A stretch of 64,000 nt of DNA from Syntrophorhabdaceae bacterium (GCA_963665295.1 OY762209.1:4992001-5056000), one strand, 5' to 3'; numbered from the stretch's first letter, positions 6,705-29,339 are shown. Notes: generated by a model not told the origin, from the letters alone. Numbers and translations are program-made.

Positions 6705-8984
6705 CTAACGGCCTTCCTTCTCCTTCAGCGCTTTGAGTACCTTTTCCGCGGTAATGGGGAGGTCCGTGATCCTCACGCCCACTGCGTCGTAAATTGCATT
6801 CGCGATGGCGGGCGCCGTGGGCACGAGCCCCGGTTCCCCTATCCCTTTGGCCCCGAAGGGTCCGTCCTGTTCATCCGTTTCCACAATTACCGCCTGGACC
6901 GGAGGCACGTCCTTTGCCGTGGGCATCTTGTAGTCAAGAAAGTTGCCGTTCTTCAGCACGCCCTTGTCGTAAACCATTCTTTCCCCGAGAGCATAGCCGA
7001 TCCCCATGAGCCCTCCCCCGTAAATCTGACCCTCCAGAAGCATGGGGTTCAAAGCCTTGCCCACATCATGGGCGGCCACGTAGTTGAGGATCTTCACCTT
7101 TCCCGTCTCTTTGTCCACCTCGACCTCCACCCCGTGAGCGCCATAGGCGTATGATACCGACAGGTTTCCCCTGAAGTCCTTGTCGAAGTTCTCGTTTGGC
7201 GGATCATAGAAGTACTCCGCCACGAGCATCCGGCCTCCCGGCGTGTAATGCACTTTTCTCAGCACCTTGGACAGGGAAATGTTCTTCTCCTTATCGTTGG
7301 TGGAAAAGATGATGCCGTCCTTCATATCGAGCGCTTCCGGGGCTTCCTTGAGGTTCCCGGCGGCGATAGCCATGATTTCGGCCCTTATCTTCCGGGCAGC
7401 GCCGAGGGCCGAATTCCCCGCCACAAAGGTGGTCCTGCTTGCGTGGGCCCCCACGTCCCAGGGACATACGTCCGTGTCGTTGTTGATGATGTTGATATCG
7501 TCCACGGGAATGCCGAGGACTTCCGACACGATCTGAGCGATGATCGTTTCCGACCCCTGGCCTATTTCCGATGACCCGGTAATGACGTCCACCTTACCGT
7601 TATCATCTACCTTTATAATCGTGCCGCACCCGTCGGACTTATAGACCCTGGCCGCGCCTCCCACATGGATGAGGGCCGCCATACCCACACCTCTTCCATT
7701 ACGCTTTCCCCTCTTTTCCTTCCAGTCAAGCCTCTTCACTACTTCTTCGATGCACTCCTTCATCCCGCAGGAGGTAATCTTGAAGTTCTGGGGCGTAACC
7801 TCTCCCGGTTCATTCGCATTGATGCGACGGATCTCGACAGGGTCGATGCCGGCTTTCTCGGCAAGCTTGTCGAGGAGGGATTCGATGGCGAAGGTGGCCT
7901 GGGGGTTTCCGTAGCCCCTCATTGCCTGACTGTAAGTGTTGTTCGTATACACGCACTTCGCCGTGTACCTGATATTCGGCACCTTGTAAAGGGACGAGAT
8001 GGGCACCATCATGACGGAAGGCGTCGTCGCCCCCCAGGATGTGTATGCGCCGTTATCGAGGACCATCTCCATCTCGCGGAAGGTGAGTTTTCCGTCTTTG
8101 TCGCACCCCTGGGATATTTTCGTGATGGTGCACTGCCTGGGAGAGGTGGCGAGAAATTCCTCTTCCCTCGAAAAGACGATCTTCACCGGTTTCCTTGTGT
8201 TCATGGCGAGGAGGATGGCAATGTACTCATAGGCGTAGGTATCGAGTTTGCTGCCGAAGCCGCCGCCGATGACCGCCTGGATGACCCTTACCCGTTTTCT
8301 CTTCAAGCCGAAGGCCTTCAGGGCTTCCGCGAAATCATTCTGCGCGAGGGATGGTATCTGGGTGTTGCTGTATACGGTAAGGTTATTGTTCACATCGAAG
8401 GATGCGACGCAGCCGCTCGTGCCGAGACAACAGTGCGTCACCCACTGGGTGCTGTAGCTGTCCTCCGCCACAAAGGCCGACTCTTTCTTTGCGGCTTCCA
8501 CATCGCCGTGGACGAACTTCCAGGGCATCTTGAGGACATTCGATTTAAATTCCTCGTGTAACAGGGACGCCCCTTCCTTCATCGCGTCCAGGGGATCGAA
8601 AATCCCCGGCAGTTCCTCGTACTCGACCTCAATCAGATCCAGGGCCTCCTCCGCTATCTCGGCGCTTATGGCCGCTACAGCGGCAATCTCGTCCCTCGTG
8701 GACAGGACCTTGCCCGTCTTGAGGGGAGGGTTGTCTTTGAGAAAACCGAACTTGAAATTATTGGGCACATCCGCACCCGTAAGCACGGCCTTCACACCGG
8801 CAAGTGCCAGGGCTTTGCTTGTGTCGATGCTCACTATTTTGGCGTGGGCATATTTGCTGTAAAGTATCTTGCCATGGAGCATGCCCGGGACCTTCACGTC
8901 CTGGATATAAAGGGCACCGCCGGTCGCTTTGAGGGGTGCGTCCTTCTTCGGGATCTTCTTTCCTACTACCGTCAGAACGTCCAT
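6705..8984 (-). CDS. Xanthine dehydrogenase family molybdopterin-binding subunit (candidate N-heterocycle hydroxylase)
   Basis: GGGFGSK, AMRGYG, HASR, GAKGIGE motifs with the catalytic Glu intact. Confidence 0.9.
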   Translation of the reverse strand: MDVLTVVGKKIPKKDAPLKATGGALYIQDVKVPGMLHGKILYSKYAHAKIVSIDTSKALALAGVKAVLTGADVPNNFKFGFLKDNPPLKTGKVLSTRDEIAAVAAISAEIAEEALDLIEVEYEELPGIFDPLDAMKEGASLLHEEFKSNVLKMPWKFVHGDVEAAKKESAFVAEDSYSTQWVTHCCLGTSGCVASFDVNNNLTVYSNTQIPSLAQNDFAEALKAFGLKRKRVRVIQAVIGGGFGSKLDTYAYEYIAILLAMNTRKPVKIVFSREEEFLATSPRQCTITKISQGCDKDGKLTFREMEMVLDNGAYTSWGATTPSVMMVPISSLYKVPNIRYTAKCVYTNNTYSQAMRGYGNPQATFAIESLLDKLAEKAGIDPVEIRRINANEPGEVTPQNFKITSCGMKECIEEVVKRLDWKEKRGKRNGRGVGMAALIHVGGAARVYKSDGCGTIIKVDDNGKVDVITGSSEIGQGSETIIAQIVSEVLGIPVDDINIINNDTDVCPWDVGAHASRTTFVAGNSALGAARKIRAEIMAIAAGNLKEAPEALDMKDGIIFSTNDKEKNISLSKVLRKVHYTPGGRMLVAEYFYDPPNENFDKDFRGNLSVSYAYGAHGVEVEVDKETGKVKILNYVAAHDVGKALNPMLLEGQIYGGGLMGIGYALGERMVYDKGVLKNGNFLDYKMPTAKDVPPVQAVIVETDEQDGPFGAKGIGEPGLVPTAPAIANAIYDAVGVRITDLPITAEKVLKALKEKEGR

Positions 8985-8986
8985 GG

Positions 8987-9454
8987 TCACCTCCCACCTG
9001 CCGCGGATTTTATGGCTTCGATAATCTTCACATAGCCGGTGCACCTGCACAGATTGCCTTCTATGCTCTCCTTGATCTCGTCTTCCGTCGGTTTTTCCTT
9101 TTCATCGAGGAGCGCCCTGGCTGACATAATCATGCCGGGGATACAGAACCCGCACTGCACCGCCCCTTCCTTTACAAATGCGTCCTGGACCGGGTCCATC
9201 TCGCCTGTTTTCGACGCGAGCCCTTCTATGGTCACGATGTCCCTGCCCTCGGCCTCCATTACCGGGTAAAGACAGGAGTTCACCGCTTGGCCGTCTATGA
9301 TGACTGTGCACGCACCGCACTCTCCGTATCCGCAGCCCTCTTTTGTGCCGGTCATCTCAAGGATTTCTCTCAGCAAATAGAGGAGTGTCCACTTGGGGTC
9401 CGCCTCCACAATCACCTTTTCCTTATTTAACGTAAATGTAATCTCTTTTTTCAT
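8987..9454 (-). CDS. XDH family 2x[2Fe-2S] subunit
   Basis: GCGYGECGAC and QCGFC...NLCRCTGY. Confidence 0.95.
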   Translation of the reverse strand: MKKEITFTLNKEKVIVEADPKWTLLYLLREILEMTGTKEGCGYGECGACTVIIDGQAVNSCLYPVMEAEGRDIVTIEGLASKTGEMDPVQDAFVKEGAVQCGFCIPGMIMSARALLDEKEKPTEDEIKESIEGNLCRCTGYVKIIEAIKSAAGGR

Positions 9455-9464
9455 TGTCCACCCC

Positions 9465-10439
9465 TTACCATAACCTGTCCGGATGTATCATGTCGTCGGG
9501 CCTTACCACACGGTCGATGGCCTTGAAGATAGCCCTTTTCGTGAGCACTCCTACCATTTCCCGACGATACCACGCCTCGCCCCGCACGCTGTCTCTCGGC
9601 CGGGATTCCGATGCCGCAATGGCGGCCGCTTCATCGATGGTCTTTTCCGAAATGACCTTGCCCTTAAGCGCCGCTTCAGCCTCCTTTGCCCTCACCGGCC
9701 TCGGCGCGACAACGCCCATGGCGAGTCTCACATCCTCGCACACGACCTTCTCCTCTTCGAGGCGCTTGAGTACTTCCGACGTACCGGCGATGGTGCAGAA
9801 GGCATCCCTGCATCCGATCTCACTCCCCTCTATCCTTATGGTAAGCCGCGCCGCGATGCCGAGGATGGGGAGGTCCATGGCTTCTCTCCGCGTATGCTTG
9901 ATGTAGGCGGAACCCGTTGTTTCGGAGAAGGCGGGCATATGAAAGCCGACCACGATCTCGCCCTTTTCCATGGTCACCTTATTCGGTCCCTGAAAAAAGT
10001 CATCCACGGGCACGGTGCGTTGTCCTTTCGGACCTTCAATGACCACCTCGGCATCGAGGACCAGAAGGGGACACGCCGAATCCGCTGAAGGCGCGGCATT
10101 GCAGATGTTACCGCCCATGGTGGCCACGTTCCTTATCTGTTTTGACCCGATCCTGCCCGCCGCATCGGTGAGCGCCGTGTAGCGGCTCTTGATGAATTCA
10201 TCCGCGGCGATCCGGCTGAGCGTCACATTGCCCCCGACCTTCAGGCCGTCCGCGCTGTCGATATAGGAGAGAGCGCCGATATTCCTGAGGGAGATCAAAT
10301 TCGCCGGCGACAGTTTCTTCTGTCTTATGAGGACCAGCACATCAGTGCCTCCCGCAATGTATGCGGCGTTGGTGAGGCTATGCGCCAGATCGATCGCCTC
10401 CTTGATAGTCTGTGGTTTATGATAGTCAAACCCTCTCAC
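9465..10439 (-). CDS. XDH family FAD-binding subunit
   Basis: AGGTD, QIRNVATMGGNICNAAPSAD. Confidence 0.9.
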   Translation of the reverse strand: MRGFDYHKPQTIKEAIDLAHSLTNAAYIAGGTDVLVLIRQKKLSPANLISLRNIGALSYIDSADGLKVGGNVTLSRIAADEFIKSRYTALTDAAGRIGSKQIRNVATMGGNICNAAPSADSACPLLVLDAEVVIEGPKGQRTVPVDDFFQGPNKVTMEKGEIVVGFHMPAFSETTGSAYIKHTRREAMDLPILGIAARLTIRIEGSEIGCRDAFCTIAGTSEVLKRLEEEKVVCEDVRLAMGVVAPRPVRAKEAEAALKGKVISEKTIDEAAAIAASESRPRDSVRGEAWYRREMVGVLTKRAIFKAIDRVVRPDDMIHPDRLW

Positions 10440-10453
10440 GATGACCCCCTTTT

Positions 10454-11749
10454 TTAGTCCCTGTTGTCAAAGACCCTTTTTGTTTTTCTCTCCGACCTCG
10501 GCAACGAACCGTAGTCGAGTAGCTCAACGTCGCAACTCACCATTATCTGCTTCTTGATGTCCTTCTCTATGGCCTTCCTCAGGTGCTTGTCGTCGTTGCC
10601 GGCTGCGCCCGCCGTCTTCTCCACCTTGAGGGCCATATAGTCCTTGCCGTCCTCCTTTCTGTCGAGAATGATCTGGTATTCGCTGCCCACACCCTCGATA
10701 TTTGAAAGAATCTGATCGATATGACTCGGGTATATGTTGACCGCCCTGAAAATAAACATGTCGTCGGACCTGCCGAGGATCCTGTCATGCATGGGCATGA
10801 CGCTCCCGCAGGGACATTTTTCCGTGACGATCCGCGTCAAATCTCGTGTCCTGTAACGGACGAGGGGCGCCCCTTCCTTTCTTAGCGTGGTGACCACCAT
10901 CTCACCTACCTCACCGGGCTTGACCGGCGTGAGGGTGTCGGGATCGAGTATTTCGAGGATATAATAGTCCGCCCAGTAATGGATACCTTTGTGGTGAATG
11001 CAATCGAGGCCGGTCCCCGGGCCGTAAAGCTCGGTAAGGCCGGGAATGTCGAAAAGCTGGTCGGGCGCGACCCCTGAAAGCTCGGAAATCCGCGCCCTCA
11101 TGGCATCGCTCGACCGTTCGGAGCCGAAAATCATCTTCCTGAGGGCAATTTTCTCCCGAAGTCCGCGCTTGTCGATCTCCTCCGCAAGGAGCAGCCCCAT
11201 GGAGGCGGTGCAGCAGACCACCGTGGTCTGAAGGTCCTCGATGAACTGGCACTGCATATCGAGGTTTCCGGGCCCTGCGGGAATGGCCATGGCGCCGAAC
11301 CGTTCACACCCGTTCTGAAAGCTGACCCCGGCGGTCCACACCCCGTACCCCACGGCTATCTGGACCCGGTCCTCCTTTGTACATCCCGCATACTCATAGC
11401 ACCTCGCGAACATGTTCGCCCAGTCATCCACATCCTTTTCCGTATAGCAAAGCACTTTCCGCTTTCCCGTGGTGCCGCTCGACGCATGTATGCGGACAAT
11501 CTTTTCAAAAGGTACACTCTGCAAGGGGAAGGGGTAGCCCTCCTGCAGGTCTTTGCTCGTGGTAAAAGGGAGCTTCCTTATGTCTTCCAGGGTCTTTATG
11601 TCTTTGGGGCCGACCCCCGTTTCATCGAACCTCTTTCTGTAGAATTCCGAACCATGATATACATGATCCACTGTCCATTTGAGCCCCCCGGTCTGAAAGG
11701 CGAGGAGTTCCTCCTCCGTCTTTATTTCTCCTGCAAAGCGTCCGTTCAT
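10454..11749 (-). CDS. Phenylacetate-CoA ligase-like aryl-acetate CoA ligase
   Basis: HASSGTTGK, GLTELYGPG, RYRTRD, GRSDDM, KTKRV motifs. Confidence 0.9.
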   Translation of the reverse strand: MNGRFAGEIKTEEELLAFQTGGLKWTVDHVYHGSEFYRKRFDETGVGPKDIKTLEDIRKLPFTTSKDLQEGYPFPLQSVPFEKIVRIHASSGTTGKRKVLCYTEKDVDDWANMFARCYEYAGCTKEDRVQIAVGYGVWTAGVSFQNGCERFGAMAIPAGPGNLDMQCQFIEDLQTTVVCCTASMGLLLAEEIDKRGLREKIALRKMIFGSERSSDAMRARISELSGVAPDQLFDIPGLTELYGPGTGLDCIHHKGIHYWADYYILEILDPDTLTPVKPGEVGEMVVTTLRKEGAPLVRYRTRDLTRIVTEKCPCGSVMPMHDRILGRSDDMFIFRAVNIYPSHIDQILSNIEGVGSEYQIILDRKEDGKDYMALKVEKTAGAAGNDDKHLRKAIEKDIKKQIMVSCDVELLDYGSLPRSERKTKRVFDNRD

Positions 11750-11936
11750 TGTCTACCTCCTGTTAAGTTTACACCTTCTCAAACGGTCGAGCCCGCCGGC
11801 CGCATCGGACCGACCGGTCTTTCCGCGCTTACTGTCGACACTTCAGGATCAACAACTACGGTGTTGTTTTTCACGCAACGCTCAGCCGGGAGAAACCACG
11901 CTGTTTCCCCCGCCGGCGAGCCGCGGCTTCCGCCCG

Positions 11937-13646
11937 TCAGCGTCTGAGTCTCTTCGTCTCCTCCATATCCACTTCGAACGTTCGGGGATCGAGAGCGACT
12001 CCGTAGTCGTCCCTCGCGCTGCCCACACTCACATATCCCTCGATTACGTCACTTGCCACCGCCTCGGGGTCCCGTTCGAAGGGTTTGCCGTACCCCCCTC
12101 CTCCAGGGGCGTCGATGGTCACCAGGTCACCGGGCACAAGCTGGGTCAGTCCATAAGAGTTCCCCGGGTCGCCATTTACCAGGAATCGCGCCTTGGCGCC
12201 GGGCTTACCGTCAAAAAGGCCCTCCGCCGCATAGAAGTACCTGCCCGCCTGAATACCCAGGTTCACGGGGGGCATGGGCGCATACCGGTCATCGGGCACC
12301 CTGAATATCTCTCTTTTCCCGAGGCCGCCTTTCATCCTGCCTATGCCGCCTGAATCGGCGACAAGCTCTCTTTTCTCCACGATGAGGGGGGTGTCACTCT
12401 CGAAGATCTCCACAGGTGTGTTGGCGCCGTTCGCAGGGAAGATATAGACATAGTTTCCGTCGTTCGAGGCGCCGGCCCCCATGCCGCCCCCTCTGATGAT
12501 GACGGAATGCCACGGTTTCCCGCCCTTGTCCTTTCCGTAGAAGACGTTCATCGCGGCCGGGGTCCCTCCCGAGCCCGCGATTACCCTGTTAGGCAACACC
12601 TCGGACAGGGCGCGGTAGATGATCTCCGTGAGAAAATGGCCTACTCCCATCCTCGCGGCCACGGCTGCGGGGAACCTGCAGTTCACCACCGTCCCTTCGG
12701 GCGCGGTGAGGAGTATGGGTCTGGCGCAGCCCTCGTTATTGGGAATATCCGGGGCGAACATGCTCTTCACGGCCATGAATACGTAGGCGTAGGTGAAGTT
12801 GTACACCACGTTGCCGCCCCAGGTTACCTGTCCCGAGGAGCCGTCGAGGTCCACAATGATATCGCTCCCCTTCACCTCCACCTTCGCCTGGATGATAATG
12901 TCTTCCTTCCCCTTCATCTGCTCGATAACCCCCCGGGCCTGATAGACGCCGTCGGGGATCTTCTCGATCTCCTCCCTCATGCTCTTCTCGGTAAGGCCGA
13001 TGATCTGGTCCGCAAGGTCGTCCAGGTTTTCAAGGTCGCTTTCCTTGAGCATCTGGCGCACCTTCTCGGCGCAGACATGGTTCGCCGCGATCTGCGACCT
13101 TATGTCTCCCACTACTTCATCGGGAGTCCTTACGTTCCACCGGATCATGTCGATCACGGACTGATTGAGCACACCCTTGTCATAAAGTTTGACTACGGGA
13201 ATGAAAAGACCTTCCTCAAAGACATCGTGGTTATCGGAGGCAACGCGACCCCCCACGTCGGAGTGGTGGAACACGCAGGCGGTAAAAGCGACGAGGGTCT
13301 CATTGTAAAAGATAGGGCTCATGACGCACACGTCGTTCAGGTGCCCCGCCAGGGCCCACGGGTCGTTGGTAATAAATACGTCTCCCGGCTGATAGTGGTC
13401 CAGAGGGAATCTGGTGACGAGGTTCTTGATCCCAAGGGCCATGGCCCCCGATTGGCCGGGGGTCGCGAAGCTGCCCTGGGCCAGTTCCCTGCCCAACCTG
13501 TCGGTAAACATACAGGTGTAATCGTGGGCATCCCTGAGCAGGCTCGAAAATGCGGTACGGGCCACACTGCTGTCCGCCTCATCCACAATGGAAATCAGCC
13601 TCCGCCATAAAATCTCCAGCGTTATCGGGTCAAAGGCGCGTGCCAT
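11937..13646 (-). CDS. Hydantoinase B/oxoprolinase family subunit
   Basis: DPITLEI, NDPWALAGHLND, HHSDVGG, FEEGL, NTPVEIFE, PGGGGYG. Confidence 0.9.
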   Translation of the reverse strand: MARAFDPITLEILWRRLISIVDEADSSVARTAFSSLLRDAHDYTCMFTDRLGRELAQGSFATPGQSGAMALGIKNLVTRFPLDHYQPGDVFITNDPWALAGHLNDVCVMSPIFYNETLVAFTACVFHHSDVGGRVASDNHDVFEEGLFIPVVKLYDKGVLNQSVIDMIRWNVRTPDEVVGDIRSQIAANHVCAEKVRQMLKESDLENLDDLADQIIGLTEKSMREEIEKIPDGVYQARGVIEQMKGKEDIIIQAKVEVKGSDIIVDLDGSSGQVTWGGNVVYNFTYAYVFMAVKSMFAPDIPNNEGCARPILLTAPEGTVVNCRFPAAVAARMGVGHFLTEIIYRALSEVLPNRVIAGSGGTPAAMNVFYGKDKGGKPWHSVIIRGGGMGAGASNDGNYVYIFPANGANTPVEIFESDTPLIVEKRELVADSGGIGRMKGGLGKREIFRVPDDRYAPMPPVNLGIQAGRYFYAAEGLFDGKPGAKARFLVNGDPGNSYGLTQLVPGDLVTIDAPGGGGYGKPFERDPEAVASDVIEGYVSVGSARDDYGVALDPRTFEVDMEETKRLRR

Positions 13647-13647
13647 G

Positions 13648-15744: not shown

Positions 15745-15797
15745 ATATCCCTCCACACTCAGCTATTGGAAAAACACGGCAACGGTTTGCGGCTGGA

Positions 15798-17426
15798 TCA
15801 GAATAAGCCCGGTTCCTGAAACTCGCCGAATATCTGTCTGAAGATGTTCGTCATCTCCCCCACCGTTGCGTAGGCCTTGCAGCACTCGACAAGGCAGGGC
15901 ATCACGTTTGCGCCCTCCCGCGTTGTCTTCTCAAGTTCCTTGAGCGTACGGGCCACGTCCCGCTCGGACCTCTCCCTCTTCACTTCCTGGAGACCTTTGA
16001 GCTGTATCTCGGCTGATTCGTAGTTGTACTCGTGGAGTTCCACATCCCTCGGCTCTTCCTCGGTGTAGATATTCACGCCCACTTTGAGAAGTTCGCCTGA
16101 TTGGATGCCCTTTTCGAACTCGTAGGCCTGCCTCGCCACCAGCCTTTGAACGTATCCCGTGGCCACCGCCTTCACGATGCCCCCGATCTTTTCGATCTTC
16201 GCCATCTCCTCTTCGATCTTGCCTTCCATCTCCTTGGTCAGGGTCTCGATGAAGTAGCTCCCCGCAAGGGGGTCTACCGTGTCGCGCAGCCCCATCTCGT
16301 CCATGAGAAGCTGGAGCGTGCGAAGCGATAGGAGGGCGGAGTGGGGTGTGGGGATCGTATAGGCTTCATCGTAGCTGCAAAGGGCCGTGGTCTGGGCCCC
16401 GGAAAGGGCTGCCACGAGGGCGTAGTACGCGCCTCTCATGATGTTGTTCTCCGGCTGCGCCTTGGCAAGGCCATAACCGCCGCCACCGAACAGGCCGCGG
16501 AGATACAGGTTCTGGGGCTTTTTCACATCATACTTCTCCTTCAGGTTCCTGGCCCAGAGCTTCCTCGCCGCCCTGAATTTGGCGACCTGTTCCCACATGT
16601 TGCCGAAGACGTTGAGGTTGAACGAGAAGGTGCCCACAAACTCGTCCACGTCGTACCCCCTCGCGAGCACGTTGTCGATATAGGCGTTGGCGATGAGGAT
16701 CGCACAGGCGATCTCCTGGGCGGGCGTAGCGCCCGATTCCCGTATATGGTAGCCGCACACGCTGACCGGGTTTGCCCTCGGCAGGTTGGTCATGGCATAT
16801 TCGATGGTGTCGCCGATGAGCTTCACGGCGGGCTCTACAGGGAATATCCAGGCGCCCCTTCCGATCATCTCCTTCAGGATGTCGTTCTGGGGCGTCGCGG
16901 AGATCACCTTGGGGCTATACCCGTACTTCTCCGCCACCGCCTGGTACATGGCGAGCATGATGGACGCCACGGCGTTGATCGTAAGGCCCGACCCGATCTT
17001 GTCGAGGCGGATGTCCTTAAAGGCAATTTCAAAATCCCTCAGGGTATCGACGGCCATTCCCACGCGGCCTACCTCTCCGTCGGACATGGGGTCGTCGGAG
17101 TCGTAACCCATCTGAGTAGGAAGGTCAAAGGCCACGTTGAGGCCCGTTTGGCCATGGGCTATCATGAGCTTGAACCGCTCGTTCGTCTCCGCGGGCGTTC
17201 CGAAGCCCGTATACTGACGGGTGGTCCATGCCCTCGACCTGTATCCCAAAGGATGTATGCCCCTGGTGAAAGGGTATTCGCCGGGATCCGCCAAATCCTT
17301 TTCGTAGGAAAAACCTATGCGGTCAAGGTCTTCCGGGGTATAGACCGGCTTTACGTGAATGTCCGACTGGAGTATCACATCGGTTATGCGACCTTTTTCA
17401 TCCTTGATATATTTTGCGACCCCCAT
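15798..17426 (-). CDS. B12-dependent acyl-CoA mutase, substrate-binding (large) subunit
   Basis: PGEYPFTRG, WTTRQYTGF, AFDLPTQMGYDSD, QNDILKE, GYHIRE, DPLAGSY. Confidence 0.92.
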   Translation of the reverse strand: MGVAKYIKDEKGRITDVILQSDIHVKPVYTPEDLDRIGFSYEKDLADPGEYPFTRGIHPLGYRSRAWTTRQYTGFGTPAETNERFKLMIAHGQTGLNVAFDLPTQMGYDSDDPMSDGEVGRVGMAVDTLRDFEIAFKDIRLDKIGSGLTINAVASIMLAMYQAVAEKYGYSPKVISATPQNDILKEMIGRGAWIFPVEPAVKLIGDTIEYAMTNLPRANPVSVCGYHIRESGATPAQEIACAILIANAYIDNVLARGYDVDEFVGTFSFNLNVFGNMWEQVAKFRAARKLWARNLKEKYDVKKPQNLYLRGLFGGGGYGLAKAQPENNIMRGAYYALVAALSGAQTTALCSYDEAYTIPTPHSALLSLRTLQLLMDEMGLRDTVDPLAGSYFIETLTKEMEGKIEEEMAKIEKIGGIVKAVATGYVQRLVARQAYEFEKGIQSGELLKVGVNIYTEEEPRDVELHEYNYESAEIQLKGLQEVKRERSERDVARTLKELEKTTREGANVMPCLVECCKAYATVGEMTNIFRQIFGEFQEPGLF

Positions 17427-17435
17427 CTTTCCCTC

Positions 17436-17840
17436 CTAATCCTTCTTTACGTGGGACTTTAAGTAATCTATGATCTCCGAGAATGGGGTCCCCCCGGGGA
17501 AAACCCCGGATATGCCGAGGGCCTTGAGCTTCGGCACGTCCATGGCGGGGATCACCCCTCCGACGACGAGCATCTTGTCCTCGATCTCCTTCTCTTTCAC
17601 CTTCTGCACCAGTTTCTTCGCAATGGGAATGTGGGCCCCGCTCATGATGGAAAGACCTATGACGTCCACATCTTCCTGCACGGCGATATCGACAATCTGA
17701 TCCACGGTCCTGTGAAGCCCCGTATAGATTACCTCCATGCCCGCCTCCTTCAGCGCATGGGCCACCACCTTGGCGCCCCGGTCATGGCCGTCGAGGCCCG
17801 GCTTCGATACCAAAACCTTTATTCTCCGTTCTTCACCCAC
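17436..17840 (-). CDS. Acyl-CoA mutase cobalamin-binding (small) subunit
   Basis: GLDGHDRG (DxHxxG), SIMSGAH, VGGVIP. Confidence 0.95.
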   Translation of the reverse strand: MGEERRIKVLVSKPGLDGHDRGAKVVAHALKEAGMEVIYTGLHRTVDQIVDIAVQEDVDVIGLSIMSGAHIPIAKKLVQKVKEKEIEDKMLVVGGVIPAMDVPKLKALGISGVFPGGTPFSEIIDYLKSHVKKD

Positions 17841-17861
17841 GCTCCCTCCTTTAAACCTCGT

Positions 17862-18590
17862 TCATTCGAAGTGACCTGATTGCATCGCCTTCAGAATAAA
17901 GTTCTTCCCCTGCAGTATATGGGACTTCACGATCCTCTCCACGTTCTCCTTGTCTCCCCTGCGCATGGCTTCCACCATGGCTTTGTGCCCCTCCAGGGAA
18001 ACCCTGGCATTACTTTGGGAACTGAGCAGGGGTCTTCTGTATCGCGAGATATAGTCCACAAACATGTTGATCAGTTTGTTGAGCATTTCGCTCTTCGCAG
18101 ACCGGTAGATCATCTCATGGAACCGGATATTAAGCTCCATTACCTTTGCGAGGTCTCCTATTTCCAATGCCCGGGAAGACTCGTCGATGATGCTCTCCAG
18201 GGCGGCGATCACCTCATCGCTCACGTGATCGCACGCTTCGGCGGCCGCGTAGCTTTCAAGGGCCGCCCTGATACCGAAGGCTTCGTGTATATCCTCCTCC
18301 GATATCTTCTTCACTATGATGCCTCTTACGGGCAGCCTCTGCACAAACCCGTACTGTTCGAGTCTTTTTATCGCCTCCCTGACAGGCACCCGGCTCACCT
18401 GCATCTTGTCGGAAAGCTTCTGCTCCACCAGCCTCTGGCCGGGCTTCAAATCGCCGTTTACAATAGAGTCCTTCAGTATCCTGTAAACAACTTCCGCCAT
18501 TGATCTATGCTTGCCCACCGGCTCGATCCGGTCCAGAAAATCTGCCGGGTCCGACGGTATTTCCTTCTGAGGTTCCTTGCTTCTTGCCAT
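17862..18590 (-). CDS. GntR family transcriptional regulator (FCD domain)
   Basis: LKPGQRLVE...VSRVPVREA winged HTH; NIRFHEMI. Confidence 0.92.
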   Translation of the reverse strand: MARSKEPQKEIPSDPADFLDRIEPVGKHRSMAEVVYRILKDSIVNGDLKPGQRLVEQKLSDKMQVSRVPVREAIKRLEQYGFVQRLPVRGIIVKKISEEDIHEAFGIRAALESYAAAEACDHVSDEVIAALESIIDESSRALEIGDLAKVMELNIRFHEMIYRSAKSEMLNKLINMFVDYISRYRRPLLSSQSNARVSLEGHKAMVEAMRRGDKENVERIVKSHILQGKNFILKAMQSGHFE

Positions 18591-18606
18591 TGCCTTTGTT
18601 TCTCCT

Positions 18607-19761
18607 CTATTTTTCCGTTTTCCCCACGATCAACCTCCCGAGAAAGTCTTTGAGAATCTCGTGGGTTCCTCCTCCGTAAAGGAGGAACCGGGCATCCCGG
18701 AAGTGACGCTGCGGGTTGTACTCGCGAGCGAAGCCGTTCGCGCCCCATATCCTTGTTACTTCATCCACCACCTTGAGGCATGTTTCCGTGGCGAACATCT
18801 TTGCCATGGCCGCCTCTTTACGGCTCGACAGGCCTTCCTTAAGCCTCCATGCCGCGGAGAATATCATGAGCCTGCTCGCCTCCATCTCCGTTGCCATGTC
18901 GGCGAACTTTGCCCTGATCAACTGGTATGTGCCGATGGCTTTGCCGAAGGCCGTCCGTTTTCTCGCATATTCCAGGCCCTCCGCCATGGCTGCGGTGGCG
19001 ATACCGAGGGCCATTGCGCCCGTCATTACCCTCACTTCGTCGAGTATCTCCCCCAGGTACTCAGTGCCCTTGTTCACCTCGGCCCCCAAGAGGTTTTCCG
19101 CGGGGACCCTTACGTCCTCGAGGACCAACTCGCCTGTGATGGTGCCCCTGCACCCGAGTTTATCGATTATCTGTCCTGCGGAAAATCCCGGAGTCCCCTT
19201 TTCCACGAGGTAAAAGTTGAGTCCCTTTACTCCGAGAGAGGGGTCCGTGGTGGCAAGCACCGTGGCGAAGTCGGCGATGGGACCGTTCGTTATCCACATC
19301 TTGGTGCCGTTCAATATCCATTCGTTCCCGTCCTTTACCGCGGTGGTGCGGGTGGAGGCGAGGTCGGAGCCGGACTGGTCTTCGGTGAAACACATGGTGG
19401 CGATCTTTTCGCCCCTCATGGCGGGATATAGACACCTCTCCTTCATCTCCTCCGTGCCGAACCGGTAGATAAAATAGGTACCCATGAGAATATTCATGAT
19501 CACGCTCTGGGCAAAACCCACGGACCCCCGGGCGATCTGCTCGTAAAAAATCATGGCAGTCACGGGGTCGGCGTTCATACCCCCTATCTCCTCGGGATAC
19601 CGCAAGCCCAGGTAGCCCAGTTTGGTGAATTCACGCCACACTTCGTAGGGAAATTCATCTTTCTCATCTATTTCCTGAGCCTTCGGCACCACCATACGGT
19701 TGACTGTATCGGTAATCATCTTCTTGAAGAATTCCTGCTCTTCCGTCAATGCAAAATCCAT
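18607..19761 (-). CDS. Acyl-CoA dehydrogenase
   Basis: FTEDQSGSD, NGTKMWITN, RTAFGKAI, GANG, RDAR. Confidence 0.92.
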   Translation of the reverse strand: MDFALTEEQEFFKKMITDTVNRMVVPKAQEIDEKDEFPYEVWREFTKLGYLGLRYPEEIGGMNADPVTAMIFYEQIARGSVGFAQSVIMNILMGTYFIYRFGTEEMKERCLYPAMRGEKIATMCFTEDQSGSDLASTRTTAVKDGNEWILNGTKMWITNGPIADFATVLATTDPSLGVKGLNFYLVEKGTPGFSAGQIIDKLGCRGTITGELVLEDVRVPAENLLGAEVNKGTEYLGEILDEVRVMTGAMALGIATAAMAEGLEYARKRTAFGKAIGTYQLIRAKFADMATEMEASRLMIFSAAWRLKEGLSSRKEAAMAKMFATETCLKVVDEVTRIWGANGFAREYNPQRHFRDARFLLYGGGTHEILKDFLGRLIVGKTEK

Positions 19762-19827
19762 ATATGCCTCCTCGCGAAATCAGTTAAGGGGCTTTCGCCC
19801 TCAAGCCGGTGGTGGGACCCGGCGCAC

Positions 19828-20979
19828 TCAGACATCTCCATGTCTCAGACTCTCCGCCGCAATGATCGTTTTCAATATCTCGGAAGTCCCTCCGCCGAAG
19901 AGGAGAAAACGGGCGTCCCTGAAATACCTCTGGGCCGGGAATTCCTCTGCTATCCCGTACGCGCCGTGGATGCGGGTCACCTCGTCCACCACGTAGCACG
20001 CGGTCTCCGTGGAATAGAGCTTGGCCATGGCCGCCTCCTTGCCCGAGAGTTCTCCCCGGTCTTTGAGCCATGCCGCATAGTACGTGAGGAGCCACGATGT
20101 CCTGATCCTCATGTCCATCTCCGCAATCTTCTCCTGTATAAGCTGGAACTTGCCTATGGGTTTGCCGAAGGCAACCCGTTCCTTCGCATACTTCAATCCC
20201 GCGGTTCGGGCACTTTCCGCGAGGCCGAGGCCAAGGGCGGAGATCATTACCCGTATTTCGCTCAGGATGGCGTTCAGATATTGTGCTCCCCTGCCTTCTT
20301 CCCCCAGGAGGTTCTCCTTCGGGACCCGACACTCATCAAGAATAAGCTCTCCCGCGCTTGTCCCCCTGGCCGAGATCTTCTTGATATCGTGGCCCACGGA
20401 AAAACCGGGGTGATTTTTCTCCACGAGAAAAAACCCGAGGCCGTTGACCCGTTTGGAGGGGTCGGTCGTGGCCGCCACGGTAAAGAAGTCTGCGTCCCTG
20501 GCGTTCGTGATCCAGAGCTTTCTCCCGTTCAGCACGTAGCTGTCGCCGTCTTTCCTCGCCCGTGTCTTGACCGCCCCCAGGTCGGAGCCGCAGTCCGGTT
20601 CGGTGAAGGCGATGACCCCGATCTTCTCACCTTTAACGGCAGGGGCAAGAAGGCGCGTCTTCTGTTCATCAGTGCCGAAACGGTGGATAAAATCGGTGCC
20701 CATGAGGCACTGCATGGTTACGCCGGCCGCGAAGCTGATCGACACCTTCGCGAGTTCCTCGGCGAATATGGTGAAGGTCACACAATCGGACCCCATGCCC
20801 CCCGCTTCCGCAGGATACCTTATCCCGTAATAGCCAAGTTTTCCCAGTTCCCTGAATACTTCAAGGGGGAATTCATCATCTCTGTCGATCGCTTCCGCAT
20901 GGGGGAGTACGATCTCCCTGAGCGTCCGGGAGACTTGTTCTTTGAAAAACCGCTGTTCTTCCGTAAAATTGAAATCCAT
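19828..20979 (-). CDS. Acyl-CoA dehydrogenase
   Basis: FTEPDCGSD, NGRKLWITN, RVAFGKPI, RDAR. Confidence 0.92.
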   Translation of the reverse strand: MDFNFTEEQRFFKEQVSRTLREIVLPHAEAIDRDDEFPLEVFRELGKLGYYGIRYPAEAGGMGSDCVTFTIFAEELAKVSISFAAGVTMQCLMGTDFIHRFGTDEQKTRLLAPAVKGEKIGVIAFTEPDCGSDLGAVKTRARKDGDSYVLNGRKLWITNARDADFFTVAATTDPSKRVNGLGFFLVEKNHPGFSVGHDIKKISARGTSAGELILDECRVPKENLLGEEGRGAQYLNAILSEIRVMISALGLGLAESARTAGLKYAKERVAFGKPIGKFQLIQEKIAEMDMRIRTSWLLTYYAAWLKDRGELSGKEAAMAKLYSTETACYVVDEVTRIHGAYGIAEEFPAQRYFRDARFLLFGGGTSEILKTIIAAESLRHGDV

Positions 20980-21039
20980 CAGCCTCTTCTCATCTCCGTC
21001 GGCGCGCCCTCGTCCGATTCGCCGGACCCGGGTCCGCCC

Positions 21040-21987
21040 TTATGGGACGTCAAATTTTCCGATCACTCTTTCCGCGGCAGTATAGGGATCGATGCGCCCC
21101 TCCTCCATGTCGGCGGCGGCCGCGTCGAGCAGCCCTTCCTTCTCCGCCCCGGCAAGAAAACGCTTCCAGAGCAATTCCCTCAAAAGGGAACGCATGACCG
21201 CGTTTTTTCCTTCCCTTCGTCTCTCCTGCTTCTTTCCATCCTTTTCAAGGTAGTCCCAATGAGCCTCCAGGGCGGACACCACGTCCGGAACCCCTTCCCC
21301 CTTGAGGGCATGGGTGAGGAGCACCGGTATGTTCCAACCTTCCGGATCATGGGCGCTCAACTCGTTCACCGCGGCCATGGCGTCAAAGGCCATCTCTTCC
21401 GCGCCGGTCTTATCCCTCTTGTTGATTACCACTATATCGCCCACTTCCACTATCCCCGCCTTCAAAAGCTGGATCTCGTCCCCATAGTCCGGGGTCAGCA
21501 CGCATATCATGGTATCCGAGAAAGAGGCGATGCCCATTTCGGTCTGACCTACGCCCACGCTTTCCACGATAATCACGTCCTTGCCCAGGGCTTCCACCAC
21601 GTAGACCGCACCGGGCGTGGCCCGCGACACGCCGCCGGGGTAGCCCCTGTGGGCCATGGAGCGGATAAATATCCCTTTTACCTTGTCCGCTTCCTTCATC
21701 CTTACCCGGTCGCCGAGAAAAGCGCCTTTCCCTTTCATGCTTGTGGGATCGACTGCGATGATCCCCACATTTCTCCCCGCACCTGTGAGAGCCAGGGTGA
21801 TCTTGTTGATCAGCGTGCTCTTCCCCGTGCCGGGAGACCCCGTAACGCCTATCACGTGGGCCTTTCCCACGTGGGGGTAAAGCTCGCGCAGGGCTTCATA
21901 CCCGACCGCGTCGCCGTCCTCGATCATGGTGATAAGGCGGGCGGCGCTTCTCTCGTTCCCTGCGAGTATCTTTGCGACAAGTTCCAT
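21040..21987 (-). CDS. meaB: Mutase-associated GTPase chaperone MeaB/ArgK
   Basis: GVTGSPGTGKST, AVDPTS, LGDRVRM, ESVGVGQ, NKRD; adjacent to the mutase genes. Confidence 0.9.
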   Translation of the reverse strand: MELVAKILAGNERSAARLITMIEDGDAVGYEALRELYPHVGKAHVIGVTGSPGTGKSTLINKITLALTGAGRNVGIIAVDPTSMKGKGAFLGDRVRMKEADKVKGIFIRSMAHRGYPGGVSRATPGAVYVVEALGKDVIIVESVGVGQTEMGIASFSDTMICVLTPDYGDEIQLLKAGIVEVGDIVVINKRDKTGAEEMAFDAMAAVNELSAHDPEGWNIPVLLTHALKGEGVPDVVSALEAHWDYLEKDGKKQERRREGKNAVMRSLLRELLWKRFLAGAEKEGLLDAAAADMEEGRIDPYTAAERVIGKFDVP

Positions 21988-23177
21988 CAGATGACTTTGT
22001 CATCCTTTAATTTCTTCAGTCTTTCCTCGTCGTATCCGAGGATTTTGCCGTATATTTCCTGGTTGTGTTCCCCGAATCTCGGGGGGAAGGTCATTTTTCC
22101 GCCGCACTCTTTGAGATAGGGCGTCATGAAGGGGGGCGGCGCCATCCATATCTTCGTGCCTGTCTTCGGATCGACGCTTTCGAGAATGCCTTCTTTCACG
22201 TAGGAGTCCTCCAGCATATCCTCGATGGTGTTCACCTTGGAGATGGCAATGGTGGCCTTATTACAGAGACTTATCATCTCATCCGTGGTCCTGGTCCGCA
22301 TTATCTCGTTGATTTTGTTGTTCAGGTTTTTCACGTCCCTGATGCGGCCCGCGTTCTTTTCGTATTCAGGCTTCGCCAGGGATTCGAATCCGGGCAGTTG
22401 CGCAAAGGATGCCCACTGCCTGTCGTTTCCCACCGCGATGTAGACAAATCCGTCCTTTGTCCCGTAAACCGAAACAGGGGCGAAGAACTCATGCGTATTC
22501 CCTCTCCTCGTGATCCTGTTACCGAAGGACTTCGTGAGGGTTATGGCCACGGTGAGCCATGAGGTGGTGGACATGAACATGGAAAGGTCGATCCTTTCCC
22601 CAACGCCGGTCATAGCCTTCTTATAAAGGGCTTTCATGACGAGCCCGTACGCATGCTCGCTTGTGCCCATATCAGGCAAGGGAATGCCCAATACCTCCGG
22701 GCTCCCGTCCGCCTCTCCCGTAAGCTCCATGAGACCGCTCCGGGCCTGAAGTATGGGGTCGTAGGCGGCTTCGTTGCTGTCAGGGCCGAAGCCGGTGAGG
22801 CCCACCCAGATAATGTCCTCCTTGATCGATTTCAGGGTGTCGTAATCTATGCCCAGTTTCTCGTAATTCCTGGGCAACTGGTTTGTGGCGAAGATATCGA
22901 CGTTCAGTTTGGTGATGAGGTCCCTGAGGATCTCCTTTCCCCCCGGCGCGGCAAGATCGAGGGAAAGGGCTTTCTTCCCCGCGTTTATGGCCATAAAATA
23001 GGTGTTCATCCGCTCTTCGCCGAGTTTGTTGTCTCCTATCATCCGGTTGGGGTCTCCGTAGACAGGGTGTTCCAGTCGGATCACGTTGACGCCGTCCATT
23101 GCGAGCCGGTAGCTCAGATAGGGAAGCACGGTTGCCTGTTCCAGGGATAAGACGGTGATATTCCTAAAAATATTCAT
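21987..23177 (-). CDS. Family III (CaiB/BaiF) CoA transferase
   Basis: GDPNR, INAGKKALSLDL, GFGPD, AYDPILQARSG, PDMG (catalytic Asp position). Confidence 0.9.
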   Translation of the reverse strand: MNIFRNITVLSLEQATVLPYLSYRLAMDGVNVIRLEHPVYGDPNRMIGDNKLGEERMNTYFMAINAGKKALSLDLAAPGGKEILRDLITKLNVDIFATNQLPRNYEKLGIDYDTLKSIKEDIIWVGLTGFGPDSNEAAYDPILQARSGLMELTGEADGSPEVLGIPLPDMGTSEHAYGLVMKALYKKAMTGVGERIDLSMFMSTTSWLTVAITLTKSFGNRITRRGNTHEFFAPVSVYGTKDGFVYIAVGNDRQWASFAQLPGFESLAKPEYEKNAGRIRDVKNLNNKINEIMRTRTTDEMISLCNKATIAISKVNTIEDMLEDSYVKEGILESVDPKTGTKIWMAPPPFMTPYLKECGGKMTFPPRFGEHNQEIYGKILGYDEERLKKLKDDKVI

Positions 23178-23273: not shown

Positions 23274-23285
23274 TATTTTCATGTC

Positions 23286-23306
23286 TACGGTATACAGTAT
23301 TCAATA
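23286..23306. promoter_or_regulatory. Candidate GntR operator
   Basis: TACGGTATACAGTATTCAATA with a GTATAC core between two facing promoters; similar box at 57972-57990. Confidence 0.6.
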
Positions 23307-24392: not shown

Positions 24393-24868
24393 AAGAAACC
24401 ACAAAACGTGCCTTCACGCTGAAGGTCAATGGAGAGACTCACCATATAGAGACATACCCGAACCGCACCCTCCTTGAAGTGCTGAGAGAGGAGTTGAGCC
24501 TCACAGGGGCGAAGGAAGGCTGCGGCGAGGGCGCCTGTGGTTCCTGCACGGTCCTTCTCGACGGGCGGCCCGTACGGTCCTGTCTTCTTCTCGCAGTGGA
24601 AGCTCAGGACGGGGAGATCACCACCATCGAGGGTCTCGCGGATGGGCGCAACCTCCACCCACTCCAGGAAGCGTTTGTCGAGCACCATGCCATACAGTGC
24701 GGATTCTGCGCCTCCGGCATGATCCTCACCGCAAAGGCGTTCCTCGACAGCAATCCCCACCCCACCGAGGATCAGATCAAACTCGCCCTTTCAGGGAATG
24801 TCTGCCGCTGCACCGGGTATACGAAGATCATCGAAGCGGTAAAATCGGTCGCGGAGAGCAGGGGGTGA
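24389..24868 (+). CDS. XDH family 2x[2Fe-2S] subunit (HcrC-like)
   Basis: GCGEGACGSC, QCGFC, NVCRCTGY. Confidence 0.95.
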   Translation: MKETTKRAFTLKVNGETHHIETYPNRTLLEVLREELSLTGAKEGCGEGACGSCTVLLDGRPVRSCLLLAVEAQDGEITTIEGLADGRNLHPLQEAFVEHHAIQCGFCASGMILTAKAFLDSNPHPTEDQIKLALSGNVCRCTGYTKIIEAVKSVAESRG

Positions 24869-28787: not shown

Positions 28788-28851
28788 CCGGGGCGGGTAA
28801 AGGGACGTCCCCCGGGGCGTCTTTTACCCGCATTCGCACGCGGAGGCAACA

Positions 28852-29337: not shown

Positions 29338-29339
29338 CA

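What the first reader, a model, noticed from the sequence alone, without database searches (positions are those of the whole stretch)
6705..23177. Anaerobic indole-3-acetate-like catabolic operon in an apparent strict anaerobe
Seen: 13 co-oriented genes encoding a family III CoA transferase, MeaB, two ACADs, GntR, a split B12 mutase, hydantoinase A/B, a PaaK-like ligase and a three-subunit XDH-family Mo enzyme. Known: this combination defines the iaa cluster of denitrifying Azoarcus/Aromatoleum (ring hydroxylation, lactam hydrolysis, aminophenylsuccinyl-CoA to aminobenzylmalonyl-CoA rearrangement, decarboxylating oxidation). Differences here: no hydratase/dehydrogenase fusion or thiolase, two ACADs, TRAP rather than ABC uptake, and a second Mo enzyme. 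Inference: a variant pathway for IAA or a related N-heterocyclic acid, possibly syntrophic.
Basis: partly seen in the sequence, partly recalled or inferred. Interest (0 to 1): 0.85.

Follow-up and report, generated by a model that had tools for sequence, protein, structure and literature searches.

The report
Syntroph's oxygen-free auxin breakdown regulon
These 13 genes are a strict-anaerobe version of a known bacterial pathway that likely breaks down the indole compound indoleacetate (auxin) without oxygen; two enzymes are swapped for unrelated ones, and an unusual molybdenum enzyme behind the same control site may remove the nitrogen from the ring.

Summary
The 13 co-oriented genes are real. 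Mutase (58%), both acyl-CoA dehydrogenases (45/42%, IaaF GGG signature), Mo large subunit (50%) and CoA transferase (37%) are orthologues of Aromatoleum IaaH/F/K/L. The promoter carries the same 11-bp site as the canonical iaa operon. Ligase and lactamase are not IaaB/IaaCE orthologues; the two lactamase types exclude each other across 30 genomes (16 vs 11, none with both), which points to gene displacement.

iaa operons in strict anaerobes were already predicted (PMC8360864), and this scan found this operon type before on other DNA, so the core is a variant of a known kind.

Added here: the mutase is in 34 of 41 genomes (this one plus 40 close relatives; likely Syntrophorhabdales). This host lacks dsrA and narG and has class II benzoyl-CoA reductase and FeFe-hydrogenases. 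The operator also precedes ETF-FixCX, indolepyruvate oxidoreductase, a saccharopine-dehydrogenase-like/β-transaminase pair and a divergent Hcr-like Mo enzyme that lacks the catalytic Glu. That enzyme was found only in genomes with the mutase (25 of 25) and is a candidate 2-aminobenzoyl-CoA deaminase. No activity or expression was tested.

The parts
23282..23303 (.). Operator (core GTATACAGTAT at 23290-23300) between face-to-face promoters of the operon and of the second Mo enzyme; predicted GntR site
   Evidence: Motif upstream of CoAT in 45 of 58 relatives' loci; same 11-mer 27-42 bp upstream of iaaQ in the Aromatoleum-type cluster L081; sigma-70-like sites 23342->23314 (-) and 23245->23273 (+)
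21987..23177 (-). Family III CoA transferase, IaaL orthologue (predicted intramolecular CoA shift on aminophenylsuccinyl-CoA)
   Evidence: 37% to EbN1 CAI07268, best genome hit by far; sister clade to IaaL
21040..21987 (-). MeaB GTPase, B12-mutase chaperone
   Evidence: TIGR00750 over cut-off
19828..20979 (-). Acyl-CoA dehydrogenase 1, IaaF type (GGG at 362-364)
   Evidence: 45% to EbN1 CAI07262, reciprocal best hit; in IaaF clade, support 100
18607..19761 (-). Acyl-CoA dehydrogenase 2, IaaF type (GGG at 363-365)
   Evidence: 41.5% to CAI07262, 56% to ACAD1; same clade
17862..18590 (-). GntR/FCD regulator (IaaQ position; predicted repressor)
   Evidence: Pfam; only 27% to IaaQ, not a reciprocal best hit
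17436..17840 (-). B12-binding mutase subunit (IaaG orthologue; DxHxxG motif)
   Evidence: 49%, reciprocal best hit
15798..17426 (-). Mutase substrate-binding subunit (IaaH orthologue; Tyr72, Arg190 kept, glycine-rich pocket LFGGGG)
   Evidence: 58%, reciprocal best hit; tree
13648..15744 (-). ATP-dependent lactamase subunit A (hydantoinase A), not an IaaC orthologue
   Evidence: 35% to IaaC, not reciprocal; AU test p=0.011 against one clade; ATP motifs intact
11937..13646 (-). Lactamase subunit B (hydantoinase B), not an IaaE orthologue
   Evidence: 31% to IaaE; AU p=0.027; metal-site motifs present; mutually exclusive with IaaE type
10454..11749 (-). PaaK-type aryl-acetate CoA ligase (replaces IaaB)
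   Evidence: No significant match to EbN1 IaaB (E 0.07); best PDB hits are phenylacetate-CoA ligases; below TIGR02155 cut-off
9465..10439 (-). Mo-hydroxylase FAD subunit (IaaI position)
   Evidence: Pfam; 31% to IaaI, not reciprocal
8987..9454 (-). Mo-hydroxylase 2Fe-2S subunit (IaaJ)
   Evidence: 52%, tied best hit
6705..8984 (-). Mo-hydroxylase large subunit (IaaK orthologue; catalytic Glu717 kept)
   Evidence: 50% to EbN1 CAI07267, reciprocal best hit; clade support 99
23391..24392 (+). Second Mo enzyme, FAD subunit with the four Cys of the HcrB-type 4Fe-4S insert
   Evidence: Alignment to PDB 1RM6_B
24389..24868 (+). Second Mo enzyme, 2Fe-2S subunit
   Evidence: Pfam
24874..27156 (+). Second Mo enzyme, HcrA-like large subunit lacking the catalytic Glu (Met716) and the conserved Gln and Arg of the Mo site; candidate aminoaryl-CoA reductive deaminase
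   Evidence: found in 25 of 151 genomes, all 25 with the mutase
27293..27625 (+). Remnant of a methylmalonyl-CoA-epimerase-like gene (in-frame internal deletion versus the intact gene in G001)
27756..30647 (+). TRAP transporter DctP (27756-28787), DctQ (28852-29337), DctM (29340-30647); predicted uptake
   Evidence: Pfam/NCBIfam; DctP orthologue in 19 of 80 mutase loci; no strong operator of its own
56816..57958 (-). Saccharopine-dehydrogenase-like NAD(P) oxidoreductase, satellite gene
   Evidence: Operator at 57978-57988; next to the operon or second Mo enzyme in relatives; 17 of 18 carriers have the mutase
55536..56792 (-). Class III (GSA-like) aminotransferase, possibly an acyl-CoA beta-transaminase
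   Evidence: JGI names 11 of the 120 listed homologues '3-aminobutanoyl-CoA transaminase'
61025..64000 (-). FixX (61025-61303), FixC (61300-62568), ETF alpha (62561-63517), ETF beta (63528 to beyond window end); predicted electron acceptor for the ACADs. Indolepyruvate oxidoreductase genes follow divergently just past the window.
   Evidence: 40-50% to the ETF/FixC inside relatives' operons; two operator sites at genome 5056391 and 5056673; IOR families

Best explanation
This operon likely degrades indole-3-acetyl-CoA without oxygen, as a strict-anaerobe variant of the Aromatoleum iaa pathway in a probably syntrophic Syntrophorhabdales bacterium. Shown: gene content, orthology of the mutase, dehydrogenases, Mo large subunit and CoA transferase, a shared operator, and displacement of ligase and lactamase. 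All chemical steps below are inferred from orthology. (1) TRAP uptake. (2) The PaaK-type ligase makes indoleacetyl-CoA; the co-regulated indolepyruvate oxidoreductase could also supply it from tryptophan. (3) The Mo hydroxylase oxidises C2 with water. (4) The ATP-dependent lactamase opens the 2-oxindole ring. (5) The CoA transferase moves CoA to the other carboxyl. (6) The B12 mutase, kept active by MeaB, gives (2-aminobenzyl)malonyl-CoA. (7) One or both IaaF-type dehydrogenases decarboxylate it oxidatively to 2-aminocinnamoyl-CoA, with electrons going to the co-regulated ETF-FixCX. (8) Beta-oxidation enzymes encoded elsewhere give 2-aminobenzoyl-CoA. (9) The nitrogen is removed, most plausibly by the divergent Hcr-like Mo enzyme (about 35% likely). 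(10) Class II benzoyl-CoA reductase, Dch, Had and Oah take the ring to acetate and H2 for a partner.
For: Against Aromatoleum proteins (EbN1 accessions found): IaaH 58%, IaaG 49%, IaaK 50%, IaaF 45/41.5%, IaaL 37%, each the best hit in the genome. Trees place them with Iaa proteins. Both ACADs have the GGG motif that PMC8360864 gives as the IaaF signature. The mutase keeps Tyr/Arg for the carboxylate and shares the glycine-rich pocket with IaaH. Related operons with the same flanking genes carry an IaaCE-type lactamase (59-71% to IaaC/E; L095-L097). The two lactamase types exclude each other: 16 vs 11 of 30 mutase genomes, none with both, 3 incomplete with neither. The operator is identical to the site upstream of canonical iaaQ. 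Indole-specific neighbours: IOR is behind the operator here, IorAB lies just upstream of CoAT in L040/42/43/50/54, and TrpB2 lies beside these genes in 8 fetched loci of relatives. Downstream genes are present: BamB, Had/Oah/Dch-like.
Against: The ligase and the lactamase, the steps that set substrate specificity, are not orthologues of IaaB and IaaCE. The ligase family is also in many genomes without the mutase (61 of 151). IaaL (37%), IaaI (31%) and IaaQ (27%) are distant. No IaaA or IaaP-like gene is in the operon, and none of the four IaaA-like thiolases elsewhere has a top-ranking operator. No growth, induction or enzyme data exist for this operon type in what I could read. The second Mo enzyme lacks the Glu that Hcr and xanthine oxidase keep, so Hcr-like chemistry is not assured.
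Confidence: 0.75

Rival explanations
1. Same downstream chemistry, different entry substrate: the swapped ligase and lactamase serve another aryl-acetate or lactam that converges on an arylsuccinyl-CoA (substituted indoleacetate, a 2-quinolone carboxylate, or a benzofuran/benzothiophene acetate).
For: The two specificity-setting enzymes are the displaced ones. There are two IaaF paralogues and two subtypes of the hydroxylase. The extra amine-handling genes are absent from the two Aromatoleum-type clusters fetched (L081, L164).
Against: The lactamase types exclude each other rather than co-occur. The operator is identical to the canonical one. IOR and TrpB2 recur as neighbours. The amine-handling pair also occurs in 5 genomes with the IaaE-type lactamase.
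Confidence: 0.15
2. The regulon serves mainly tryptophan or indole turnover or nitrogen scavenging rather than energy metabolism on free indoleacetate, with the ligase and IOR partly anabolic (indoleacetate to tryptophan).
For: IOR is co-regulated. PaaK-type ligases of this group occur in many genomes without the pathway. A TrpB2-aminotransferase-IOR operon exists in this genome.
Against: The ring-opening, rearranging and irreversible decarboxylating steps (PMC8360864) only make sense catabolically. A full benzoyl-CoA pathway is present. No exact operator lies upstream of this genome's TrpB2 operon.
Confidence: 0.07
3. An unrelated catabolic operon that only resembles iaa by family names (canonical methylmalonyl-CoA mutase, acetophenone carboxylase, xanthine dehydrogenase).
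For: All families involved are common in this genome: 3 mutases, 3 hydantoinases, 14 ACADs, about 14 Mo large subunits.
Against: Reciprocal best hits, trees, signature motifs and the operator all point to iaa. NCBIfam cut-offs for MCM (438 vs 876), Apc (328 and 107 vs 1500) and XdhA (612 vs 780) are not reached.
Confidence: 0.03

Closest known systems
iaa cluster of Aromatoleum aromaticum EbN1 (Ebenau-Jehle 2012 and Schuhle 2016, not held, recalled; Schuhle 2021 = PMC8360864, read)
   Same: Orthologous IaaG/H, IaaF (GGG), IaaJ/K, IaaL; hydantoinase-type lactamase and a CoA ligase in the operon; GntR regulator; identical 11-bp operator.
   Different: PaaK-type ligase instead of IaaB; lactamase from another clade; two IaaF paralogues; MeaB; no iaaA/iaaP/iaaM/iaaR in the operon; TRAP uptake; co-regulated ETF-FixCX, IOR, Glu-less Hcr-like enzyme and amine-handling pair.
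Predicted iaa operons of strict anaerobes (Desulfatiglans anilini, NaphS2, Desulfocarbo indianensis, Ferroglobus placidus; PMC8360864)
   Same: IaaF orthologue(s) with a dedicated ETF in relatives' operons (23 of 80 loci); several IaaF paralogues (three subclades here, three paralogues reported for Desulfocarbo).
   Different: This host has no dsrA, and its ETF block has left the operon. I could not fetch the named operons, so whether they use the same ligase and lactamase types is untested.
4-hydroxybenzoyl-CoA reductase HcrABC of Thauera aromatica (PDB 1RM6), for the divergent Mo enzyme
   Same: Best PDB hit for large and FAD subunits; the four Cys of the extra 4Fe-4S cluster are kept; His of the RGHG motif kept.
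   Different: Glu726 replaced by Met/Leu, and the conserved Gln and Arg replaced, in 11 of 11 clade members; below TIGR03194 cut-off (646 vs 995).
ATP-dependent lactamases (caprolactamase CapAB, PMC8453981; N-methylhydantoinase PDB 7HK5)
   Same: DxGGT, GxxPGP and metal-site motifs present.
   Different: Far below caprolactamase cut-offs (525 and 254 vs 1000); substrate inferred from context only.

Membership tests
Aromatoleum-type iaa cluster | IaaGH-orthologous B12 mutase | tested here: met
   58%/49%, reciprocal best hits, tree, shared pocket motif
Aromatoleum-type iaa cluster | IaaF-type ACAD with GGG in place of YEG | tested here: met
   Both ACADs; clade support 100 (signature from PMC8360864)
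Aromatoleum-type iaa cluster | IaaIJK-orthologous Mo hydroxylase | tested here: met
   Large subunit 50%, reciprocal, clade 99, Glu kept; FAD subunit only 31% and not reciprocal
Aromatoleum-type iaa cluster | IaaL-orthologous CoA transferase | tested here: met
   37%, best genome hit, sister clade support 100
Aromatoleum-type iaa cluster | IaaCE-orthologous lactamase | tested here: not met
   35%/31%, other genome copies score higher; AU p 0.011/0.027 with long branches; occupies the same slot and excludes the IaaE type
Aromatoleum-type iaa cluster | IaaB-orthologous indoleacetate-CoA ligase | tested here: not met
   E 0.07 to CAI07258; PaaK type instead
Aromatoleum-type iaa cluster | Thiolase IaaA, hydratase/dehydrogenase and binding protein IaaM in the cluster | tested here: not met
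   Absent from the operon; IaaA-like genes (46-47%) lie elsewhere; thiolase in 2 and fusion in 5 of 80 relatives' loci
Aromatoleum-type iaa cluster | Shared operator upstream of the first gene | tested here: met
   GTATACAGTAT in both L081 and the window, 0.00 expected in shuffles; no exact match in a second canonical cluster, L164, only a looser one
Aromatoleum-type iaa cluster | Induction by, and enzymatic turnover of, indoleacetate | not testable with these tools
   Needs culture and enzyme assays
Predicted strict-anaerobe iaa operons (PMC8360864) | Dedicated ETF paralogue with iaaF | tested here: inconclusive
   Not inside this operon, but a homologous ETF-FixCX block 38 kb away carries the operator
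Predicted strict-anaerobe iaa operons (PMC8360864) | Direct orthology to the named NaphS2, D. anilini, Desulfocarbo, F. placidus proteins | not tested
   Those sequences were not retrieved
4-hydroxybenzoyl-CoA reductase (second Mo enzyme) | Extra 4Fe-4S cluster in the FAD subunit | tested here: met
   Four Cys aligned with 1RM6_B
4-hydroxybenzoyl-CoA reductase (second Mo enzyme) | Conserved active-site Glu and curated family score | tested here: not met
   Met716 aligned to Glu726; 11 of 11 clade members lack it; 646 vs 995 bits
Methylmalonyl-CoA mutase / acetophenone carboxylase | Curated family cut-offs and pocket residues | tested here: not met
   PRK09426 438 vs 876; ApcC 328, ApcD 107 vs 1500; HCQTSG replaced by LFGGGG

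The most novel reading that the evidence does not exclude
The regulon holds the missing nitrogen-removal step of anaerobic amino-aromatic degradation. A new subfamily of Hcr-like molybdenum enzymes that works without the catalytic glutamate reductively deaminates 2-aminobenzoyl-CoA (or 2-aminocinnamoyl-CoA), helped by an imine-reductase-like protein and an acyl-CoA beta-transaminase. This lets strict anaerobes feed indoleacetate, tryptophan and, through TrpB2, free indole into class II benzoyl-CoA reductase. Syntrophorhabdales, in which the pathway is nearly a core trait, would be a main sink for indole compounds in methanogenic habitats.
Probability: 0.3. Interest if true: 0.8.

Novelty: new variant of a known kind. 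Interest (0 to 1): 0.47.

Why it matters
The core pathway is known, so the operon alone is not a surprise. Three things make it useful. It predicts a new growth substrate class (indoleacetate, tryptophan, indole) for a common lineage of digester and sediment syntrophs. It gives a lactamase and a ligase that seem to do IaaCE and IaaB jobs from other clades. It names specific candidate genes for removing an aromatic amino group in strict anaerobes, a step still discussed only as putative (PMC7500099), and a candidate ETF for IaaF, whose anaerobic electron acceptor is unknown (PMC8360864).

Tried and rejected
Papers: the 2012 founding paper and a Mo-enzyme review were not held; Schuhle 2016 was seen only as a citation. 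Its survey of gene clusters, and supplements I did not see, may already describe the PaaK ligase, the other lactamase or Syntrophorhabdus. Searches listed no paper linking Syntrophorhabdaceae to iaa genes or naming the Glu-less enzyme; one search was too broad to be informative (30 of 31,483 listed). A single-sequence AlphaFold model of the second Mo large subunit was useless (pLDDT 30), so active-site claims rest on sequence alignment. Sequencing runs: no RNA holder listed, so nothing on expression. The test of whether the Glu-less enzyme is absent from Aromatoleum-type genomes had only 2 genomes (G216, G617; both without a match), because that type was rare in the samples (2 of 381 and 1 of 121). 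The ESM Atlas gave only generic saccharopine dehydrogenase names. The enoyl-CoA hydratase at window 36991-37764 was rejected as part of the system (31-35% hits only). I could not assign the beta-oxidation genes. A conserved Cys near the Mo site of the second enzyme was considered and dropped (SMC/SMI/SQV/SQA vary). No complex prediction was run, because paralogous dimers would pass by likeness to solved structures.

Full report
Observation. Spacing is tight and one strong sigma-70-like promoter precedes the first gene. I infer a Syntrophorhabdales host. The genome (98% complete) has no dsrA match, no narG over cut-off, five FeFe-hydrogenase matches, a BamB-type class II benzoyl-CoA reductase (E 5e-300 to PDB 4Z3W; a second similar cluster), and Had and Oah over cut-off. 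It also has a cbb3-type oxidase, so 'strict anaerobe' is an inference from lineage and BamB.

Reference set. A published iaaF primer found a metagenome locus, L081, whose proteins share 90% clusters with A. aromaticum EbN1 IaaB (CAI07258), IaaF (CAI07262), the Mo large subunit CAI07267 and IaaL (CAI07268). The other iaa gene letters for L081, and the roles of IaaIJK (C2 hydroxylation) and IaaCE (lactam hydrolysis), rest on gene order and my recall of the 2012 paper, which was not held. PMC8453981 (passages) lists IaaCE as a hydantoinase-like hydrolase of matching lengths.

Orthology. Window versus Iaa: mutase 58% and 49%, Mo large subunit 50%, 2Fe-2S 52%, ACAD1 45%, ACAD2 41.5%, CoA transferase 37%, each the best or tied-best hit in the genome. 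Trees put both ACADs in the IaaF clade (support 100), the mutase and CoA transferase as sisters of IaaH and IaaL, and the Mo subunit with IaaK (99). These are FastTree trees on de-duplicated rows, with genome paralogues as outgroups. Both ACADs carry GGG for YEG, the IaaF signature in PMC8360864 (parts 1-5 of 6 read). The mutase keeps Tyr72 and Arg190 and has LFGGGG where MCM has HCQTSG, as IaaH does. Against the simple reading: the ligase has no significant match to IaaB (E 0.07) and is PaaK-like. The lactamase is 35%/31% to IaaC/E, other genome copies score higher, and one clade is rejected at AU p 0.011 and 0.027, with long branches in play. FAD subunit and GntR are not reciprocal hits.

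Displacement test. In one sample of 151 genomes of the phylum, 30 (14 families) have the mutase at >=70%. The 16 other genomes that matched at E<=1e-150 were dropped as 59-60% or 43-48%. Of the 30, 16 have the window's lactamase B, 11 have an IaaE-type one (>=67%), none has both, and 3 (62-90% complete) have neither. Operons with the IaaCE type keep the same flanking genes (L095-L097). Kin are not independent, but both types span several families (8 and 6; one family has both types in different genomes). This is the pattern of non-orthologous displacement for one job.

Distribution. The mutase is present at >=65% in 34 of 41 genomes (own plus 40 close relatives; two hits partial or split). The Aromatoleum-type mutase at >=70% was in 1 of 301 genomes of this phylum. 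Any close IaaH match was in 2 of 381 genomes of the phylum of G332. The window's type is therefore the common form in these samples. Both ACAD types occur together in 9 of 80 loci, ACAD1 alone in 3 and ACAD2 alone in 5, so the pair is not obligatory.

Regulon. A motif with consensus TTGTATACAGTATACA lies upstream of the CoA transferase in 45 of 58 relatives' loci (own genome and G001 left out). A lead on a shared site came from an earlier scan note and was tested here. The top sites in this genome precede: the two ETF-FixCX copies, the divergent IOR genes just past the window, the saccharopine-dehydrogenase-like/aminotransferase pair (window 57978), a ligase-ACAD unit whose ACAD is 48-64% identical to ACADs beside relatives' clusters, the operon/second Mo enzyme promoter pair, and a second pair of both Mo large subunits at 2.69 Mb. 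Positions scoring >=16 bits numbered 18 against a mean of 2.2 for column-shuffled matrices; overlapping positions count separately. The exact 11-mer GTATACMGTAT, chosen after seeing the motif, occurs 9 times (2.6-3.4 expected); 7 lie upstream of these genes, 1 before a sodium symporter and 1 inside a gene. The same 11-mer lies just upstream of iaaQ in L081, but not exactly in a second canonical cluster.

Indole anchor. IorAB lies directly upstream of the CoA transferase in L040, L042, L043, L050 and L054. TrpB2 lies beside these genes in L036, L039, L041, L049, L138, L139, L143 and L146. This genome has a TrpB2-aminotransferase-IOR operon next to its BamB cluster, without an exact operator.

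Second Mo enzyme. Its FAD subunit keeps the four Cys of the HcrB 4Fe-4S insert. Its large subunit aligns best to HcrA but has Met716 at Glu726. All 11 de-duplicated clade members lack that Glu and the conserved Gln and Arg, while every other Mo subunit that could be read at that column keeps the Glu (one row gapped there). The Glu's role as essential base or proton donor is stated in PMC10420851 (passages); the roles of Gln and Arg are recalled. It was found in 25 of 151 genomes, all 25 with the mutase; 5 mutase genomes lacked it. In relatives it is followed by an epimerase-like gene, the saccharopine-dehydrogenase-like gene and the class III aminotransferase. An epimerase fits IaaF's stereospecificity (PMC8360864); here that gene is an internally deleted remnant, with an intact homologue elsewhere. 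The pair is optional: 17 and 18 of 30 mutase genomes, and one genome without the mutase. My best guess is removal of the ortho-amino group. Anaerobic anthranilate is said to go to benzoyl-CoA by a reductase (PMC4539516, passages), and Hcr-like proteins are only putative 4-aminobenzoyl-CoA reductases in D. anilini (PMC7500099, passages). It could instead be a cofactor-less or electron-transfer module.

Comparison and verdict. It works like the iaa pathway. It is not a member of the Aromatoleum-type cluster in the strict sense, since the IaaB and IaaCE tests fail. PMC8360864 already reports predicted iaa operons with a dedicated ETF in strict anaerobes, and earlier notes of this scan describe the same operon type, the Hcr-like module and the TrpB2/IOR link on other DNA (used as leads only). 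I found no paper on iaa genes in Syntrophorhabdaceae (PMC8674449 and PMC11659651, passages, add nothing on it), but the 2012 and 2016 papers were unreadable here. Verdict: new variant of a known kind; interest 0.47; novel case probability 0.3.

Noticed in passing
G000:C1:2686000-2699700 (L115): Second pair of both Mo large subunits (54% and 52%) behind the same operator, with two cysteine-desulfurase-like genes, a DsrC-like gene and a split further Mo enzyme; the hydroxylase copy has no FAD subunit gene of its own. In L135/L136 the two large subunits are adjacent and share one FAD/FeS set, hinting at a joint complex.
   Followed up: partly
window 61025-64000 and G000:C1:3886399-3890008: The ETF-FixC-FixX block, with its operator, is duplicated (3.6 kb, 99.8% identical); could be a real duplication or an assembly feature.
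   Followed up: partly
G000:C1:5056812-5060382 (just past the window): Three-part indolepyruvate oxidoreductase: a 401-aa IorA-like fragment, IorB and a full IorA; a similar fragment follows the lactamase in L007 and L015.
   Followed up: partly
G000:C1:4695348-4712078: TrpB2, class I aminotransferase, IorA fragment and IorB lie directly downstream of a class II benzoyl-CoA reductase cluster; a near-copy of that cluster is at 5.385-5.394 Mb.
   Followed up: partly
G000:C1:4614895-4628500 (L170): Alternative-complex-III/Qrc-like genes with a cbb3-type oxidase in an otherwise anaerobic genome.
   Followed up: partly
G000:C1:736055-737572: Sodium/solute symporter with an exact operator upstream; possible second uptake system.
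   Followed up: no
L083, L084, L093: Other mutase clusters (47-60% to the window's) with MaoC hydratase, SDR and SCP-x-like thiolase: further iaa-like variants in the phylum.
   Followed up: no
window 49255-51549 and 38135-40219: A 764-aa protein with a Nal1-like C-terminal domain and a 694-aa protein with Ig-like repeats, both unexplained.
   Followed up: no
G000 genome-wide: Several exactly duplicated blocks (PaaK-like ligases, IaaA-like thiolases, TRAP genes appear twice with identical scores) and about 14 XDH-family large subunits.
   Followed up: no
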